NCBI GenBank assembly: GCA_011620345.1
Contig: WOZJ01000050.1
Span: forward strand, 66,495 to 130,494
Length of the DNA: 64,000 nt
Direction of reading: 5' to 3'
From: Nitrospirota bacterium
GTDB taxonomy: Bacteria > UBA2233
Of the stretch, positions 39,845-42,826 are shown in pieces. Each line of letters begins with the position of its first letter. Positions within the stretch are counted from its first letter, which is position 1. A program made the translations under genes and the position numbers. The notes under the pieces are model-generated. The model did not search any database. It saw only the letters and a list, made by a program, of their open reading frames with translations, and was not told the origin of the DNA.

Positions 39845-41047
39845 TTAAGCATCATGCCGGCCGATGATGGCAACGCTGTTGATGTTCATGAACGGAAAGC
39901 CGCCCAGGTTATGCGTAAGGCCAAGCTTCGGGTTTTGGATCTGCCTTTTTCCAGCCCTGCCGAGCAGCTGGAGGTACATTTCATATAGCATCCGAATTCC
40001 GGAGGCACCGATGGGATGGCCGAAGCATTTCAAGCCTCCGTCGGGCTGGCAGGGAATCTTCCCGTTTATGTCGTAGAAGCCCTCCATGACATCCTTTGGC
40101 GCCTTTCCCCGTTCGGAGATGTGCAAATCCTCGTAGGTCACGAGCTCCGTGATCGAAAAGCAGTCATGTACCTCCATCATACTAACCTCCTCCCGGGGGT
40201 TGTTCACCCCGGCCTCTTTGTACGCAAGGGAGCTGGCCTTGGAGGTCGTTACAAAATGATCGAAGTCCCAGTTGTCGTACTGGAGCTCCTCGCCGCTGCT
40301 GATGGCAATTTGCAGGGCCTTGACCGTGACATAGTCTTTCTTGCCCAGGCTTCTTGCGATTTCCGGCGTAGTCACGATAGCCGCCGCGGCCCCGTCGCTT
40401 ACGCCACAACAGTCATACAAGCCCAGCGGGTAGGCGATCATCGGGGAATTTAAGATTTGATCCTCCGAAACCGGCCTTTGCAAGTGGGCCTTGGGGCTTA
40501 AAGAGCCGTTATAGTGGCTCTTCGCCGAAATATGGGCCATGGCCTTCTTCACCTCGTCCATGCTCAGGCCGTGCTTGGCGGCATAGCCCTGGGCCAGCAT
40601 GGCGAACCCTCCTGGGGCGGTCATGTTGGGCATCGTAAAAAAGGCCAAAGAACCCCCCCCAATGCTCGGAAGGCCGCCGTAGCCCGTGTCTTTGAGCTTC
40701 TCGACCCCTAAGGCCAGGCAGATATCGTAGGCCCCGGAGGCTACCGCATAGACGGCTCCACGGAACGCCTCGGTTCCGGTGGCGCAAAAATTCTCCGTTC
40801 GGGTAACCGGAATGTAGGGTAAATGCAAGGTTAAGGCCAAGGCCAACGCGCTTTTCCCGACGTTTACCTCATCGATGCAAGTGCCTTGCCAGGCCGCTTG
40901 AATCTCCTTGCGGTCAATGCCGGCATCCTCGATACATTCCTGGAACGCCTCGACGATGAGCTCCTCCGCCCCGACATCCCAGCGCTCGCCAAACTTTGTG
41001 CAACCCATTCCGATGATAGCTACCTTATCCTTGATTCCCGTTGCCAT
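39845..41047 (-). CDS. thiolase-domain protein (archaeal-type acetyl-CoA C-acetyltransferase / SCP2-thiolase-like)
   Basis: ...KVAIIGMGCTKFGERW..., ...ENFCATGTEAF... (active-site Cys), C-terminal ...HPIGASGIRMLYEMY.... Start at ATG 41047 (GGGGAGG RBS). Confidence 0.8.
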   Translation of the reverse strand: MATGIKDKVAIIGMGCTKFGERWDVGAEELIVEAFQECIEDAGIDRKEIQAAWQGTCIDEVNVGKSALALALTLHLPYIPVTRTENFCATGTEAFRGAVYAVASGAYDICLALGVEKLKDTGYGGLPSIGGGSLAFFTMPNMTAPGGFAMLAQGYAAKHGLSMDEVKKAMAHISAKSHYNGSLSPKAHLQRPVSEDQILNSPMIAYPLGLYDCCGVSDGAAAAIVTTPEIARSLGKKDYVTVKALQIAISSGEELQYDNWDFDHFVTTSKASSLAYKEAGVNNPREEVSMMEVHDCFSITELVTYEDLHISERGKAPKDVMEGFYDINGKIPCQPDGGLKCFGHPIGASGIRMLYEMYLQLLGRAGKRQIQNPKLGLTHNLGGFPFMNINSVAIIGRHDA

Positions 41048-41061
41048 TCTTTTGCCTCCCC

Positions 41062-42516
41062 TTAGGCTTCTTCTTGTGGAACGGCTTTCCAAAAGTACCC
41101 GTGAAAGCCTCGCTCTTTGTCGTACCAGCGCTTGCGGAAGGACATCTTTACCGTTTGACCGACCCCTAGCTTCTCCAGCTCGCAGTCTGTAAAGTCAAGG
41201 AGCGTCCTTCCTCCCCCCTCAAACTGCACCATCCCGTAAATTGCAGGAGGGTCGATAGAGACAGCCAGCAGATCCCCCGTAAACGAGATGATTTTGGCTT
41301 TTCTTCCCGAGAATTCGTAGTCTTCTTGCTCGTACACCGCATGGCATTCCGGCTTGACGCACACGTCCGTTTTTGGAAACTGGGGGGTGCCGCAGACCTT
41401 GCACCTTCCCCCGACCAACCCAAGTATCGCCTTTCTTTTTCGCCAAAGGACGCTCAATGGGGATTGGGCGCTGACTTCGGCCCGAATGCCGGTATCGGCG
41501 CCGAGACGGTCGCGGAACTGGCAGAACTTGGTGTAGCTTTCCATTTCCTTGCGTTTGGCCAAGGAGCCTTTGATGCCGTTCCTTGCCGGCAATTTTGCGA
41601 TGTTCTCGGTAACCTCGAACCAAAAAGCGTCCGAGCCCTGGCCGAAGCTGGCCAAAAGGAGCTTGTCTCCGGGCTTGGCGTCCTCAAGGGCATGGATAAA
41701 CATCGCCAAGGGGTGGGCCGTACCCATCTCGCCGCAGGTTTCGTGCATGTTGCCCTGAACCATCTGGGGGCTGGCTCCGATCTTTTTGGCGATCGCCGCG
41801 TGCTCCCTGCTAAAGAAGCACGGGTAAATGACTTTTGAGAAATCGCCGATGGAGAGGCTGTACTTCGAAAGAAGCCCGTTGATGGCTTCCGGCAGGATCT
41901 TCACATACCCCTCATCCCGAATCCAGCGTTCTTCCCAAATGTAGTCGTACTTCTTGGCGGCATCCCGGTAATGGTCGGGGAAATCGTAGCTGACGGAATG
42001 GTATCCCTTGAGCTCGGCGATAACGCCCTCCTTACCCAAGAGCAAGGACGCGGCCCCGTCCCCAAACCACATCTCATAGAAATAGCCTGCCTTGGCCTCC
42101 CGCTTGTCTGAAGCGGCCACGAGGATGCTGTTTTTGTTTCCGCTTTGAAGGCTTTCGAAGGCCGAAATCATCGCTGTAGTCCCGGCTTTTAATGAGCCCG
42201 TGAAATCGGCCGTGAGGATTTCGTTTTTTAAGTTGAGCGCTGTAGATGCGATGCCGGCGTTTTGCCGGTCTGCGTAAGGCAACGTGGTCGAGGCCAGGAA
42301 CAGGGCATCAACCCCTGCCTTGTCCGTACCCTTCAGGCAGTCCCTGGCCGCCTCGACGCCCATGCTCAGGGCGTCTTCATCCCAGTTGCAGACCGACCTC
42401 TCGCCCTGGGCCACGGCAATGGTGGCCGGGGCAAACCATGCCATACTTTGGAACATGGTCATACGGGGTAGACGAAGTCTGGGAACATACCCCCCATAGG
42501 AAACGATTCCGATCAT
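41062..42516 (-). CDS. HMG-CoA synthase-like condensing enzyme fused to C-terminal DUF35 (zinc-ribbon + OB-fold) domain
   Basis: N-terminal ...IVSYGGYVPRLRL... plus the initiation-condensing-enzyme fold. C-terminal CKVCGTPQFPKTDVCVKPECH (rubredoxin-like ribbon) followed by an OB-fold segment. Start at ATG 42516 with AAGGAGGAGG RBS. Confidence 0.75.
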   Translation of the reverse strand: MIGIVSYGGYVPRLRLPRMTMFQSMAWFAPATIAVAQGERSVCNWDEDALSMGVEAARDCLKGTDKAGVDALFLASTTLPYADRQNAGIASTALNLKNEILTADFTGSLKAGTTAMISAFESLQSGNKNSILVAASDKREAKAGYFYEMWFGDGAASLLLGKEGVIAELKGYHSVSYDFPDHYRDAAKKYDYIWEERWIRDEGYVKILPEAINGLLSKYSLSIGDFSKVIYPCFFSREHAAIAKKIGASPQMVQGNMHETCGEMGTAHPLAMFIHALEDAKPGDKLLLASFGQGSDAFWFEVTENIAKLPARNGIKGSLAKRKEMESYTKFCQFRDRLGADTGIRAEVSAQSPLSVLWRKRKAILGLVGGRCKVCGTPQFPKTDVCVKPECHAVYEQEDYEFSGRKAKIISFTGDLLAVSIDPPAIYGMVQFEGGGRTLLDFTDCELEKLGVGQTVKMSFRKRWYDKERGFHGYFWKAVPQEEA

Positions 42517-42638
42517 GCCTCCTCCTTCCGTTTCTTTTGCTCCCCTTGCCAACAAGGGGGTTGCGGGTTAGTGATAAAAAAGCTTTTTGTGTACTATCAA
42601 GAATCATCCGTGAGATGTCCCAAAAAACTTACAGTACT

Positions 42639-42654
42639 CTGAATTTCAATTCAG
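42639..42654. promoter_or_regulatory. palindromic site CTGAATT-tc-AATTCAG upstream of the HMGCS-DUF35/thiolase operon
   Basis: Perfect 7-bp inverted repeat. A near-copy cAGAATTTCAAATCgg occurs at 42735-42750; both share the GAATTTCAAWTC core. Confidence 0.4.
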
Positions 42655-42734
42655 TTTCAACATAAAAAACAACCATTTTTTAGGGAGAATAGCTCTTTTA
42701 TGGGTATTTAGGGTACCTTAAGGGTGCATCCTAG

Positions 42735-42750
42735 CAGAATTTCAAATCGG
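42735..42750. promoter_or_regulatory. second GAATTTCAAATC site (partner of 42639-42654)
   Basis: 11/12 identity to the core of the first site. Contains the AATTT-c-AAATc near-palindrome. Confidence 0.35.
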
Positions 42751-42826
42751 AATCAAGAAAAACATTCTATAGCCGTTTTAAGCTGGCGAATAAAGGCGTG
42801 AAGGCCGTTTCACGGGAGGGTTAGGG

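What the first reader, a model, noticed from the sequence alone, without database searches (positions are those of the whole stretch)
39845..42760. Archaeal-style thiolase + HMGCS-like/DUF35 fusion operon with paired GAATTTCAAWTC palindromes upstream
A thiolase-domain protein (39845-41047) follows a condensing enzyme whose C-terminus carries a Cys4 ribbon plus OB-fold (DUF35). In archaea the three components are separate proteins forming a thiolase/HMG-CoA synthase channeling complex, and here two of them are fused. Such a complex feeds the mevalonate pathway, but in a bacterium with this metabolic context it could serve another acetoacetyl-CoA-consuming route. Its AT-rich 330-bp upstream region holds two related sites: CTGAATT-tc-AATTCAG (42639-42654) and cAGAATTTCAAATCgg (42735-42750). 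These are candidate binding sites for a dedicated regulator.
Basis: partly seen in the sequence, partly recalled or inferred. Interest (0 to 1): 0.5.

Follow-up and report, generated by a model that had tools for sequence, protein, structure and literature searches.

The report
Thiolase operon with inactive HMGS-DUF35 partner
This two-gene operon encodes an archaeal-type thiolase and a partner that looks like HMG-CoA synthase fused to a DUF35 scaffold but has lost every catalytic residue, so it most likely cleaves 3-ketoacyl-CoAs in a fatty-acid-type breakdown route rather than feeding the mevalonate pathway; one of the two upstream sites is a conserved palindrome and probably binds a repressor.

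Summary
A 484-aa HMGS-like/zinc-ribbon/OB (DUF35) fusion lies at 41062-42516 (-). A 400-aa archaeal/SCP-x-type thiolase follows 14 nt downstream at 39845-41047 (-).

The HMGS-like domain is homologous to archaeal HMGS and to PhlA/MucA, not to FabH. It lacks the whole E-C-H-N catalytic tetrad (T77, L109, P232, E263) and scores below both archaeal-type NCBIfam HMGS cut-offs. The thiolase keeps Cys88, H294-D-x-F and G-H344. This matches the bacterial "ACAT/HMGS-DUF35" class described by Liao et al. 2026 (PMC12960953), whose P. fluorescens example only cleaves acetoacetyl-CoA and makes no HMG-CoA.

Relatives in other genomes sit in beta-oxidation clusters. These hold MaoC hydratase, SDR, acyl-CoA dehydrogenase, CoA-transferase or ligase and SCP2, and SDR and SCP2 are often fused onto the same protein.

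Site 1 (TGAAT-N4-ATTCA, 42640-42653) is conserved in four related loci while the spacer and the surrounding DNA diverge, so it is a likely operator. Site 2 is a degenerate copy with no independent support.

Verdict: a new member of a known kind. The mevalonate reading is not supported.

The parts
41062..42516 (-). Gene for the 484-aa fusion protein: HMGS-like pseudoenzyme domain plus DUF35 (zinc ribbon and OB fold). Stop codon TAA at 41062-41064.
   Evidence: ORF; Pfam; PDB sequence matches to PhlA 9e-36, MucA 5e-25, archaeal HMGS 1.6e-24 and DUF35 1e-12; AF2 model pLDDT 79, pTM 0.84, best folds PhlA, archaeal HMGS (TM 0.90) and MucA.
41497..42516 (-). HMGS-like domain (aa 1-340) without catalytic residues. 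The E, C, H and N positions are T77 (42286-42288), L109 (42190-42192), P232 (41821-41823) and E263 (41728-41730).
   Evidence: Residue-by-residue alignment to 6esq_I; family columns T 26/26, L/Q/M/V, P 26/26, E 26/26; codons checked; NCBIfam HMGS 193 bits against a cut-off of 244.
41338..41418 (-). Rubredoxin-like Cys4 zinc ribbon of DUF35 (aa 367-393; C372, C375, C386, C391).
   Evidence: Pfam zf-ChsH2; the four cysteines are invariant in 26 relatives.
41074..41307 (-). OB-fold part of DUF35 (aa 404-481).
   Evidence: Pfam OB_ChsH2_C; alignment of aa 358-481 to the DUF35 subunit 6esq_E, E = 1e-12.
39845..41047 (-). Gene for the 400-aa archaeal/SCP-x-type thiolase with intact catalytic motifs: C88 (40784-40786), H294-D-C-F297 (40157-40168), G343-H344 (40016-40021).
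   Evidence: Pfam; NCBIfam NF004810/PRK06157 683 bits against a cut-off of 403; best PDB match archaeal thiolase 6esq_A, 6e-54; motifs conserved in 52-54 of 54 partner thiolases; codons checked.
42640..42653 (.). Site 1: palindrome TGAAT-N4-ATTCA (with flanks 42639-42654, CTGAATTTCAATTCAG). Probable operator.
   Evidence: Only exact match in the 64-kb window; arms invariant, spacer variable and flanks diverged in L001-L004; in L001, L002 and L004 it starts 4 nt after a good -10 hexamer (read).
42735..42750 (.). Site 2: degenerate direct copy of site 1 (CAGAATTTCAAATCGG), not palindromic. It lies in the spacer of a weak TTGATT-17-TAGGAT promoter-like pair (42756-42728, minus strand).
   Evidence: Present only in the window and L003, absent from L001.
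42518..42527 (-). Shine-Dalgarno AAGGAGGAGG of the fusion gene, which fixes the start at ATG 42516.
   Evidence: Sequence; a GGAGG-type Shine-Dalgarno is kept in all five loci (AAGGAGGAGG in four, AAGGGGATGG in L001).
42827..42874 (.). Perfect 17-bp-stem hairpin after the upstream porin gene (42886-44298). It marks the upstream boundary of the operon's control region.
   Evidence: Inverted repeat I1; Porin_O_P.

Best explanation
The operon encodes a two-protein thiolase complex.

The thiolase is the only catalyst. It uses Cys88 as nucleophile, His294 of the HDxF motif and His344 of the GHP motif. It cleaves acetoacetyl-CoA or longer 3-ketoacyl-CoAs with CoA into acetyl-CoA plus a shortened acyl-CoA.

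The upstream protein is a pseudoenzyme. It keeps the HMG-CoA-synthase fold and the DUF35 zinc-ribbon/OB module but none of the HMGS catalytic residues. It most likely serves as the obligatory structural partner. By analogy with the archaeal, PhlACB and MucABC complexes, it would hold the thiolase in the assembly and help form the CoA site. By analogy with relatives where these enzymes are fused or adjacent, it would also dock the preceding enzymes of the cycle, a MaoC-type hydratase and an SDR dehydrogenase.

The pair therefore acts as the thiolytic step of a beta-oxidation-type pathway, not as an entry into mevalonate synthesis.

Transcription is probably held off by a still unidentified dimeric repressor that binds the palindrome TGAAT-N4-ATTCA over the core promoter.

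Shown here: the domain anatomy, the loss of the tetrad, the retention of the thiolase motifs, strong purifying selection, the gene-neighbourhood association and the conservation of site 1. Shown by others: thiolysis only, for a P. fluorescens homologue. Inferred: the scaffold role, the pathway, the substrate chain length and the repressor.
For: (1) Loss of HMGS chemistry. The alignment to archaeal HMGS 6esq_I puts T77, L109, P232 and E263 at the E, C, H and N positions. Across 26 relatives these columns are T 26/26, L/Q/M/V, P 26/26 and E 26/26. The same pattern holds in most proteobacterial homologues. NCBIfam HMGS models score 193 and 132 bits against cut-offs of 244 and 353.

(2) Intact thiolase. 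C88, HDCF with H294, and GHP are conserved in 52-54 of 54 partner thiolases. The protein passes the PRK06157 equivalog model at 683 bits against 403. Its closest solved structure is the archaeal complex thiolase.

(3) Published biochemistry for the same architecture. PfACAT/HMGS-DUF35 has a fused HMGS-DUF35 with no tetrad, and its ACAT keeps Cys, HDxF and GHx. It makes no HMG-CoA or acetoacetyl-CoA but cleaves acetoacetyl-CoA, and H294Y abolishes this (PMC12960953). The His has the same number as here.

(4) Context of relatives. Of 71 loci, 57 carry a roughly 910-aa form (HMGS-like + DUF35 + SDR + SCP2). These are flanked by an MFE-2-like MaoC+SDR+SCP2 protein (47/52), a thiolase (43/51), a TetR (31/47) and an acyl-CoA dehydrogenase (27/44), plus FadH-like, acyl-CoA ligase and thioesterase genes. 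The short-form locus L082 reads fusion, thiolase, MaoC, MaoC, SDR, CoA-transferase. Sphingomonas and Variovorax megaplasmids read SDR, MaoC, fusion, acetyl-CoA acetyltransferase, with acyl-CoA dehydrogenase and CoA transferase following in Variovorax.

(5) The pseudo-domain is under selection. Median identity to the window protein across 48 distant loci is 60% for the HMGS-like domain, 65% for DUF35 and 73% for the thiolase.

(6) Operator. Arms 10/10 invariant, spacer 0/4, other columns 21/86. In L001, L002 and L004 the palindrome begins 4 nt after TTGACA/TTGCAA-17-TATGCT/TATACA.
Against: In the window the pair stands alone, between a porin gene and a convergent endonuclease V gene. No hydratase, dehydrogenase, acyl-CoA dehydrogenase or regulator is adjacent. 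The pathway is therefore transferred from relatives at 45-69% identity.

Short forms branch outside the long-form clade, so the transfer crosses a real split in the family.

No activity, substrate or assembly was measured for this protein.

The direction (cleavage or condensation) cannot be read from sequence. Archaeal KT/DUF35 complexes with SDR and MaoC partners work in synthesis.

The high conservation of many polar residues in the 'dead' domain could mean more than scaffolding.

For the operator, the window's own -35 is poor (CTCCCT) and the promoter scan found nothing. The motif is missing upstream of relatives at 69-72% identity. No regulator gene was found.
Confidence: 0.55

Rival explanations
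1. One reading: an active thiolase/HMG-CoA synthase channelling complex that turns acetyl-CoA into HMG-CoA for mevalonate or another HMG-CoA-using route.
For: There is clear homology to the archaeal complex in all three modules. Some sources name relatives 'hydroxymethylglutaryl-CoA synthase family protein'.
Against: All four catalytic residues are replaced, three invariantly. The score is below both archaeal-type HMGS equivalog cut-offs. The homologous bacterial complex makes no HMG-CoA, and mutating the tetrad in the archaeal enzyme abolishes it (PMC12960953). No mevalonate gene appears among the window genes annotated or in any of the related neighbourhoods examined.
Confidence: 0.03
2. The complex works in the condensing direction. 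It would be a CoA-dependent, ACP-independent chain-elongation or reverse beta-oxidation module like the Sulfolobus acidocaldarius KT/DUF35/reductase/MaoC fatty-acid synthase, with the scaffold pulling the unfavourable Claisen condensation.
For: The DUF35-mediated assembly of ketothiolase, SDR reductase and MaoC dehydratase in S. acidocaldarius is synthetic (bioRxiv 10.1101/2024.07.05.601840). Relatives fuse or neighbour the same partner types, KR-type SDR and MaoC. The host looks like an anaerobe, where such pathways run near equilibrium.
Against: The clusters hold acyl-CoA dehydrogenases, FadH-like reductase, acyl-CoA ligase or CoA-transferase and TetR repressors, which is the usual degradative set. 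No enoyl-CoA reductase of the MDR/ECR type was seen. The P. fluorescens complex did not condense acetyl-CoA in vitro.
Confidence: 0.15
3. The HMGS-like domain is not a mere scaffold. It has acquired a new catalytic or ligand-binding site, so the pair carries out a second, unknown reaction.
For: The domain is about as conserved as the thiolase across phyla, 60% against 73% median identity. It has many invariant polar residues (C43, N44, D46-E47-D48, H182, R184, D191, W194-E195-E196-R197-W198, C233, H239, N256, H258, E263, H268). An invariant Glu sits at the old Asn position and an invariant Cys next to the old His position.
Against: PhlA and MucA, the closest solved relatives, are non-catalytic (PMC12960953). 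Several of these residues vary in proteobacterial homologues. No activity beyond thiolysis was reported for the Pseudomonas complex. Interface residues can be just as conserved.
Confidence: 0.12
4. A Friedel-Crafts C-acyltransferase of secondary metabolism, like PhlACB or MucABC.
For: PhlA is the best sequence and fold match of the HMGS-like domain. It shows the same loss of the tetrad.
Against: PhlC and MucB lack the HDxF histidine, whereas this thiolase has H294-D-C-F. PhlC matches the thiolase far worse (3e-21) than the archaeal thiolase does (6e-54). No PKS or NRPS gene was found among the window genes annotated.
Confidence: 0.04
5. An 'evolutionary intermediate' with no physiological role, as Liao et al. 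suggested for such minimal loci.
For: In the window the pair has no pathway neighbours. The published complex showed only a generic activity.
Against: At least 598 species genomes carry relatives. Both proteins evolve slowly and keep their motifs. The gene pair is invariably linked: 10/10 short forms and 43/51 long forms. Relatives are embedded in, or fused to, beta-oxidation enzymes. The promoter region carries a conserved operator.
Confidence: 0.05

Closest known systems
PfACAT/HMGS-DUF35 of Pseudomonas fluorescens and the ~1,000 'minimal' bacterial HMGS-ACAT-DUF35 loci (Liao et al., Nat Commun 2026, PMC12960953)
   Same: HMGS-like and DUF35 are fused in one protein. The E-C-H-N tetrad is absent. 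The partner thiolase keeps Cys, HDxF (His294 in both) and GHx. There is no PKS or NRPS nearby. By inference the activity is thiolysis only.
   Different: The hosts differ: an uncultured anaerobe whose closest genome hit is a Deltaproteobacteria MAG at 69%. The nearest proteobacterial homologues I could read are 45-48% identical. Gene order here is fusion then thiolase, with a lineage-specific operator.
Archaeal acetoacetyl-CoA thiolase/HMG-CoA synthase/DUF35 complex (Methanothermococcus thermolithotrophicus, PDB 6ESQ/6ET9)
   Same: All three modules are homologous (thiolase 6e-54, HMGS 1.6e-24, DUF35 1e-12). The fold match has TM 0.90. The thiolase motifs are the same.
   Different: The HMGS module is catalytically dead here and is fused to DUF35, so the two-step channelled synthesis of HMG-CoA cannot occur.
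PhlACB (Pseudomonas protegens) and MucABC (Streptococcus macacae) acyltransferases (PDB 5M3K/5MG5, 9SKH, 9VBO)
   Same: They have a non-catalytic HMGS-like subunit, which is the best match to this domain, plus a thiolase-like catalytic subunit and DUF35.
   Different: In those enzymes the thiolase-like subunit has lost the HDxF histidine and acylates small aromatic or tetramic acceptors. They are three separate proteins within biosynthetic clusters.
Sulfolobus acidocaldarius KT/DUF35 + SDR reductase + MaoC dehydratase assembly (bioRxiv 10.1101/2024.07.05.601840)
   Same: DUF35 ties a thiolase to SDR and MaoC enzymes of the same cycle. Relatives of the window protein have exactly these partners fused or adjacent.
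   Different: The archaeal assembly has no HMGS-like module, it is assigned to synthesis, and its DUF35 clade is reported as restricted to archaea.
Other thiolase-superfamily assemblies: eukaryotic peroxisomal MFE-2 / SCPx, and bacterial DUF35-thiolase pairs (BbsAB; ChsH2-DUF35/Ltp2, Shy/Sal)
   Same: They use SCP-x-type thiolase folds. MaoC hydratase-2, SDR and SCP2 domain sets are found in the long-form relatives. DUF35 acts as a docking module for a thiolase-fold enzyme.
   Different: They act on different substrates (branched or steroid side chains, benzoylsuccinyl-CoA). None has an HMGS-like pseudo-domain. BbsB matches the window thiolase less well (5e-46) than the archaeal thiolase does.

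Membership tests
HMG-CoA synthase (archaeal thiolase/HMGCS/DUF35 type) | Catalytic E-C-H-N tetrad | tested here: not met
   The positions hold T77, L109, P232 and E263 (alignment to 6esq_I; family columns).
HMG-CoA synthase (archaeal thiolase/HMGCS/DUF35 type) | Score above the curated NCBIfam equivalog cut-offs | tested here: not met
   NF003274 scores 193 bits against 244, TIGR00748 132 against 353 and TIGR01835 41 against 360.
HMG-CoA synthase (archaeal thiolase/HMGCS/DUF35 type) | HMGS fold, co-encoded with an archaeal-type thiolase and DUF35 | tested here: met
   Foldseek 6et9_I TM 0.90, rmsd 2.2; thiolase against 6esq_A 6e-54; DUF35 against 6esq_E 1e-12.
HMG-CoA synthase (archaeal thiolase/HMGCS/DUF35 type) | Mevalonate-pathway genes in the same genome | not testable with these tools
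   Only 64 kb is available. No mevalonate-pathway or MEP gene was found among the window genes annotated.
Bacterial ACAT/HMGS-DUF35 minimal loci (Liao et al. 2026) | HMGS-like and DUF35 fused in one polypeptide, next to an ACAT gene | tested here: met
   The 14-nt gap between the genes is shown.
Bacterial ACAT/HMGS-DUF35 minimal loci (Liao et al. 2026) | Tetrad lost while ACAT keeps the catalytic Cys, HDxF and GHx | tested here: met
   C88, H294-D-C-F297 and G343-H344, conserved in 52-54 of 54 relatives.
Bacterial ACAT/HMGS-DUF35 minimal loci (Liao et al. 2026) | No adjacent PKS/NRPS machinery | tested here: met
   The neighbours are a porin, endonuclease V, TatC and housekeeping genes.
Bacterial ACAT/HMGS-DUF35 minimal loci (Liao et al. 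2026) | Thiolysis of acetoacetyl-CoA, with no HMG-CoA or acetoacetyl-CoA formation | not testable with these tools
   This is a biochemical property, known only for the P. fluorescens complex.
Bacterial ACAT/HMGS-DUF35 minimal loci (Liao et al. 2026) | Direct sequence relatedness to the P. fluorescens proteins | not tested
   The sequence is not in the text and no supplement is held. Indirect support: the His number is the same, the thiolase passes PRK06157, and proteobacterial homologues are 45-48% identical.
NCBIfam NF004810 / PRK06157 acetyl-CoA acetyltransferase | Full-length score above the curated cut-off | tested here: met
   683 bits against 403, covering 1-398 of 400.
Friedel-Crafts acyltransferases PhlACB / MucABC | Thiolase-like subunit has lost the HDxF histidine | tested here: not met
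   H294 is present. The criterion comes from PMC12960953.
Friedel-Crafts acyltransferases PhlACB / MucABC | Located in a type III PKS or NRPS-PKS cluster | tested here: not met
   None was found among the window genes annotated.
Long-form beta-oxidation cluster (TetR, MFE-2-like, HMGS-like-DUF35-SDR-SCP2, thiolase, ACAD) | C-terminal SDR and SCP2 domains on the fusion protein | tested here: not met
   The window protein ends after the OB fold at 484 aa. Long forms are about 910 aa.
Long-form beta-oxidation cluster (TetR, MFE-2-like, HMGS-like-DUF35-SDR-SCP2, thiolase, ACAD) | Adjacent TetR, MFE-2-like and ACAD genes, and the TCCATCA-N2-TGATGGA operator | tested here: not met
   These genes are absent from the window neighbourhood. 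There is no copy of the motif in the window.
DUF35 (zf-ChsH2 + OB_ChsH2_C) | Cys4 ribbon followed by an OB fold | tested here: met
   Pfam (OB 25.0 bits, just under the 27.1 cut-off, and ribbon 24.5 above 23.2); 6esq_E 1e-12 over aa 358-481; the cysteines are invariant.

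The most novel reading that the evidence does not exclude
The 'dead' HMGS-like domain may be a functional part of a widespread bacterial beta-oxidation metabolon. This metabolon would be built on the archaeal thiolase/HMGS/DUF35 chassis and is seen in hundreds of anaerobe and proteobacterial genomes. The domain would have a rewired pocket, with an invariant Glu at the old Asn position, an invariant Cys next to the old His position and a DYxWEERW loop. 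That pocket would bind or hand over the acyl-CoA, or perform a second reaction, so the complex would be a bacterial counterpart of peroxisomal MFE-2/SCPx rather than an evolutionary leftover.
Probability: 0.15. Interest if true: 0.6.

Novelty: new member of a known kind. Interest (0 to 1): 0.3.

Why it matters
The finding corrects a tempting misannotation. Public sources call these proteins 'HMG-CoA synthase', which would wrongly imply a mevalonate entry point in bacteria.

It also places this locus in a class whose biochemistry was touched only in 2026 and whose physiological role was left open. The neighbourhood survey made here covers fused SDR and SCP2 domains and adjacent MaoC, acyl-CoA dehydrogenase, CoA-transferase and TetR genes. 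It gives that class a concrete and testable role as the thiolytic module of a beta-oxidation-type cycle. This argues against the published idea that such minimal loci are functionless intermediates.

For this window itself the biology is ordinary acyl-CoA metabolism, with one good operator candidate.

Tried and rejected
1. Mevalonate versus MEP test. I annotated about 45 window genes and found neither pathway, so the test cannot be done on 64 kb. It is moot once the tetrad is seen to be missing.

2. Chance test of the 12-mer GAATTTCAAWTC. It is not significant on its own. I relied on phylogenetic footprinting instead.

3. Sigma-70 promoter scan of the window's upstream region. It found no site. 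Promoter placement was read from three relatives and remains uncertain for the window.

4. Link between the window palindrome and the TetR regulators of the long-form clusters: rejected. Those loci carry a different operator, TCCATCA-N2-TGATGGA, which is absent from the window.

5. Search for the window motif further afield. It is absent upstream of relatives at 69-72% identity. One extra perfect copy lies in L007 before a malic-enzyme-like gene, which may be chance or a shared regulator.

6. Rfam scan of the 5' region. It returned only sub-threshold hairpin hits on the porin terminator, so there is no riboswitch.

7. Literature searches for the deltaproteobacterial cluster. No paper describes it. 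A DUF35 hit in Price et al. was a false word match to DUF3584.

8. The P. fluorescens sequence could not be obtained from the paper or its supplements.

9. BbsAB-like and steroid Ltp2-like roles were considered and set aside. The matches are weaker than to the archaeal thiolase and none of the corresponding pathway genes is present.

Full report
**Observation**

The minus strand carries two tightly linked genes. ORF 41062-42555 begins in practice at ATG 42516, just after AAGGAGGAGG (42518-42527), a GGAGG-type Shine-Dalgarno that four related loci also carry. This gives a 484-aa protein. Pfam finds a FabH/HMGS-type C-terminal half (ACP_syn_III_C, aa 218-294), a ChsH2-type zinc ribbon (367-393) and a ChsH2-type OB fold (404-461), which together are DUF35. 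Fourteen nucleotides after its TAA, behind GGGGAGG, starts a 400-aa thiolase at 39845-41047.

Upstream lies a phosphate-selective-porin gene (42886-44298) that ends in a perfect 17-bp-stem hairpin (42827-42874). Downstream a convergent endonuclease V gene ends at 39769. The pair is therefore a self-contained bicistronic operon. The 5' region has 39-44% GC against 55% for the window. Both reported sites are present exactly as written.

**What the fusion protein is**

Against solved structures, the N-terminal 320-340 residues match PhlA (9e-36 and 2e-31), MucA (5e-25) and the archaeal HMG-CoA synthase of the M. thermolithotrophicus complex (1.6e-24). Bacterial MvaS (4e-6) and FabH (at least 3e-4) are far behind. 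Residues 358-481 match the DUF35 subunit of the same archaeal complex (1e-12). An AlphaFold model (pLDDT 79, pTM 0.84) gives the same ranking by fold: PhlA, archaeal HMGS (TM 0.90, rmsd 2.2 Å), then MucA.

The residue-level alignment to the archaeal enzyme is decisive, however:
- The Glu of GSESHPYA aligns with T77 (ASTTLPYA).
- The nucleophile Cys of FACKAGT aligns with L109 (GSLKAGT).
- The His of VFHQPNG aligns with P232 (IYPCFFS).
- The Asn of LGNTYSG aligns with E263 (CGEMG).

In 26 relatives these columns are T 26/26, L/Q/M/V, P 26/26 and E 26/26. NCBIfam's HMGS equivalog models score 193, 132 and 41 bits against cut-offs of 244, 353 and 360. The domain cannot perform HMGS chemistry.

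**What the thiolase is**

It passes the curated equivalog model NF004810/PRK06157 end to end (683 bits, cut-off 403). Its closest solved relative is the thiolase of the archaeal complex (6e-54), followed by other SCP-x-type thiolases. BbsB (5e-46) and PhlC (3e-21) are more distant. It keeps the nucleophile C88 (FCATG), H294-D-C-F297 and G343-H344. These positions are conserved in 52-54 of 54 thiolases encoded next to homologous fusions.

**Comparison with the literature**

Liao et al. (Nat Commun 2026, PMC12960953) describe this architecture. They found 1,030 bacterial loci with co-localised HMGS, ACAT and DUF35 genes. Of these, 1,001 have no biosynthetic neighbours.

Their representative from P. 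fluorescens has a fused HMGS-DUF35 without the E-C-H-N tetrad and an ACAT that keeps Cys, HDxF and GHx. In vitro it made neither HMG-CoA nor acetoacetyl-CoA but cleaved acetoacetyl-CoA, and H294Y abolished this. The histidine has the same number as in the window protein.

PhlC and MucB, the catalytic subunits of the Friedel-Crafts acylases, lack that histidine. This separates the window protein from them. The authors left the physiological role open and suggested an 'evolutionary intermediate'.

**Evidence from related loci**

The family is large. It has 4,491 hits in the protein collection, typically 60-70% identical across Deltaproteobacteria, Chloroflexi, Abyssubacteria, Lindowbacteria and Myxococcales. 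At least 598 species genomes carry a relative. The nearest genome is a Deltaproteobacteria MAG at only 69%.

I called ORFs in 87 loci and clustered them. The results were:
- 57 of 71 loci carry a roughly 910-aa form. Pfam resolves it as HMGS-like + DUF35 + SDR + SCP2.
- That form is preceded by an MFE-2-like protein (hydratase-2/MaoC + SDR + SCP2) in 47 of 52 observable cases.
- A TetR gene lies upstream in 31 of 47.
- The thiolase follows in 43 of 51.
- An acyl-CoA dehydrogenase follows in 27 of 44.
- FadH-like reductase, acyl-CoA ligase and a DUF4442 thioesterase recur.

Ten loci have the short 484-aa form, always followed by the thiolase. These branch outside the long-form clade in a neighbour-joining tree.

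Short forms are also found with the same partners as separate genes. L082 (Syntrophaceae) reads fusion, thiolase, MaoC-N, MaoC-C, SDR, family III CoA-transferase. Megaplasmids of Sphingomonas paeninsulae and Variovorax paradoxus (44-47% identity by tblastn) read SDR, MaoC, 'OB-fold domain-containing protein', acetyl-CoA acetyltransferase; in Variovorax an acyl-CoA dehydrogenase and a CoA transferase follow. Their fusion proteins also lack the tetrad, apart from an Asn kept in Variovorax.

Three independent arrangements therefore tie the pair to the other three activities of a beta-oxidation cycle.

The pseudo-domain is nearly as constrained as the enzyme it accompanies. Median identity to the window protein over 48 distant loci is 60% for the HMGS-like domain, 65% for DUF35 and 73% for the thiolase. 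This speaks against a functionless relic.

**Mechanism**

I commit to the following. The thiolase is the sole catalyst and performs thiolysis of 3-ketoacyl-CoA. The fusion protein is the structural partner inherited from the archaeal complex. There, and in PhlACB and MucABC, DUF35 and the HMGS-type subunit hold the assembly together, and MucB alone is inactive.

In relatives the same polypeptide physically carries the dehydrogenase and a lipid-binding SCP2 domain. This suggests that it organises consecutive enzymes of the cycle. The S. acidocaldarius ketothiolase/DUF35/reductase/MaoC assembly shows that DUF35 can do this. It also shows that the direction could be synthetic, which I keep as the main rival.

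The degradative gene set (acyl-CoA dehydrogenase, FadH-like reductase, ligase or CoA-transferase, TetR) and the in-vitro result for the Pseudomonas complex favour cleavage.

For the window itself the pathway is inferred from homologues, because no partner gene is adjacent. The rest of the window encodes anaerobe central metabolism: 2-oxoacid:ferredoxin oxidoreductases, succinate dehydrogenase/fumarate reductase, acetyl-CoA synthetase and transferase, and purine synthesis. I found no isoprenoid-pathway gene and no regulator gene.

**The upstream sites**

I aligned the region with four loci whose fusion proteins are 99, 89, 85 and 83% identical.
- Site 1 survives as [A/C]TGAAT-N4-ATTCA[T/G].
- All ten arm positions are invariant and none of the four spacer positions is. 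Only 21 of the 86 other aligned columns are invariant (Fisher p = 4e-6).
- It is the only exact TGAAT-N4-ATTCA in the 64-kb window.
- In L001, L002 and L004 the palindrome starts four nucleotides after a good promoter (TTGACA or TTGCAA, 17 nt, TATGCT or TATACA; read). It therefore covers the transcription start, which is the usual place for a repressor.

In the window the corresponding -10 (TATGTT, 42659-42664) is kept. The -35 is poor, however, and the consensus scan finds no promoter, so the geometry here is less certain.

Site 2 is not a palindrome. It belongs to a 26-nt direct repeat of the site 1 region at 77% identity. It lies inside a weak TTGATT-17-TAGGAT pair and occurs only in the window and in the near-identical strain L003. 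It may be a secondary or half site, or a duplication remnant; I cannot tell which.

The regulator is unknown. The TetR genes of the long-form clusters have their own, different palindrome, TCCATCA-N2-TGATGGA, with 26 exact copies in the loci and none in the window. The window motif is absent upstream of relatives at 69-72% identity. No known RNA element lies in the leader.

**Verdict**

The homology statement is right. The proposed function, HMGS-type channelling toward mevalonate or another acetoacetyl-CoA-consuming route, is not supported.

The locus is a new member of a recently described bacterial class of thiolase complexes with an inactive HMGS-DUF35 partner. It most likely acts in acyl-CoA degradation and has one well-supported, lineage-specific operator. 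Interest for this window is modest. The broader pattern seen in relatives deserves a biochemical test.

Noticed in passing
L013:7078, L019:6909, L005:6831, L030:1595 and others: A 16-bp palindrome TCCATCA-NN-TGATGGA lies just upstream of the TetR gene that heads the long-form clusters. There are 26 exact copies in 87 loci (1.28 Mb). It is probably the autoregulatory operator of that TetR, and it is absent from the window.
   Followed up: partly
L013:7118-15849, with the same order in about 40 other loci: A conserved cluster reads TetR, [MaoC hydratase-2 + SDR + SCP2], [HMGS-like + DUF35 + SDR + SCP2, about 910 aa], thiolase, acyl-CoA dehydrogenase, DUF4442 thioesterase. It is found in Thermodesulfobacteriota and Chloroflexota MAGs and in Desulfosarcina alkanivorans PL12 (L066). 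I found no paper describing it.
   Followed up: partly
L007:5166-5183: A perfect AATGAAT-ACTC-ATTCATT palindrome lies 7 nt after TTGACA-17-TATTGA, upstream of a malic-enzyme-like gene, in the closest genome (69% relative). It has the same arms as window site 1. This may indicate a shared, non-dedicated regulator, or it may be chance.
   Followed up: no
window 42720-42760 and 42630-42666 (minus strand): Each of the two sites sits in the spacer of a -35-like/-10-like pair: TTGATT-17-TAGGAT for site 2 and TTGAAA-18-TACTGT for site 1. The 26-nt direct repeat covers the -35-like element plus the site, as if a promoter-operator module had been duplicated.
   Followed up: partly
fusion protein aa 181-193 (window about 41938-41976): The AlphaFold model has very low confidence in a loop that nevertheless holds family-invariant residues (H182, R184, D191, Y192), next to the invariant WEERW. 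This pattern would fit a partner interface that orders on binding.
   Followed up: no
L091:7001-8446 (Sphingomonas paeninsulae plasmid): In this homologue three of the four zinc-ribbon cysteines are replaced (C375T, C386S, C391D). The Cys4 site is therefore dispensable in some lineages, although it is invariant in the window's group.
   Followed up: no
window 22515-28227: Two adjacent sets of 2-oxoacid:ferredoxin oxidoreductase subunits lie here (POR_N, POR, TPP_enzyme_C). Together with acetyl-CoA hydrolase/transferase (16982-18502), acetyl-CoA synthetase (31732-33630) and succinate dehydrogenase/fumarate reductase genes (9459-12865), they point to an anaerobic lifestyle.
   Followed up: no
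window 7403-9462: An OYE-family flavoenzyme gene (similar to FadH, BaiCD and NamA N-terminal parts) overlaps the start of an SDR gene by about 58 nt on the same strand. This could be an unlinked acyl-CoA or enoate-reducing pair, or the SDR start may be mis-set.
   Followed up: no
window 29183-30004: A DUF6775/DUF7001 'probable metallopeptidase' gene sits directly beside the Thi4 and ThiF-family genes (30024-31625).
   Followed up: no
window 624-2717: A 697-aa ORF has no NCBIfam match at E <= 1e-5.
   Followed up: no
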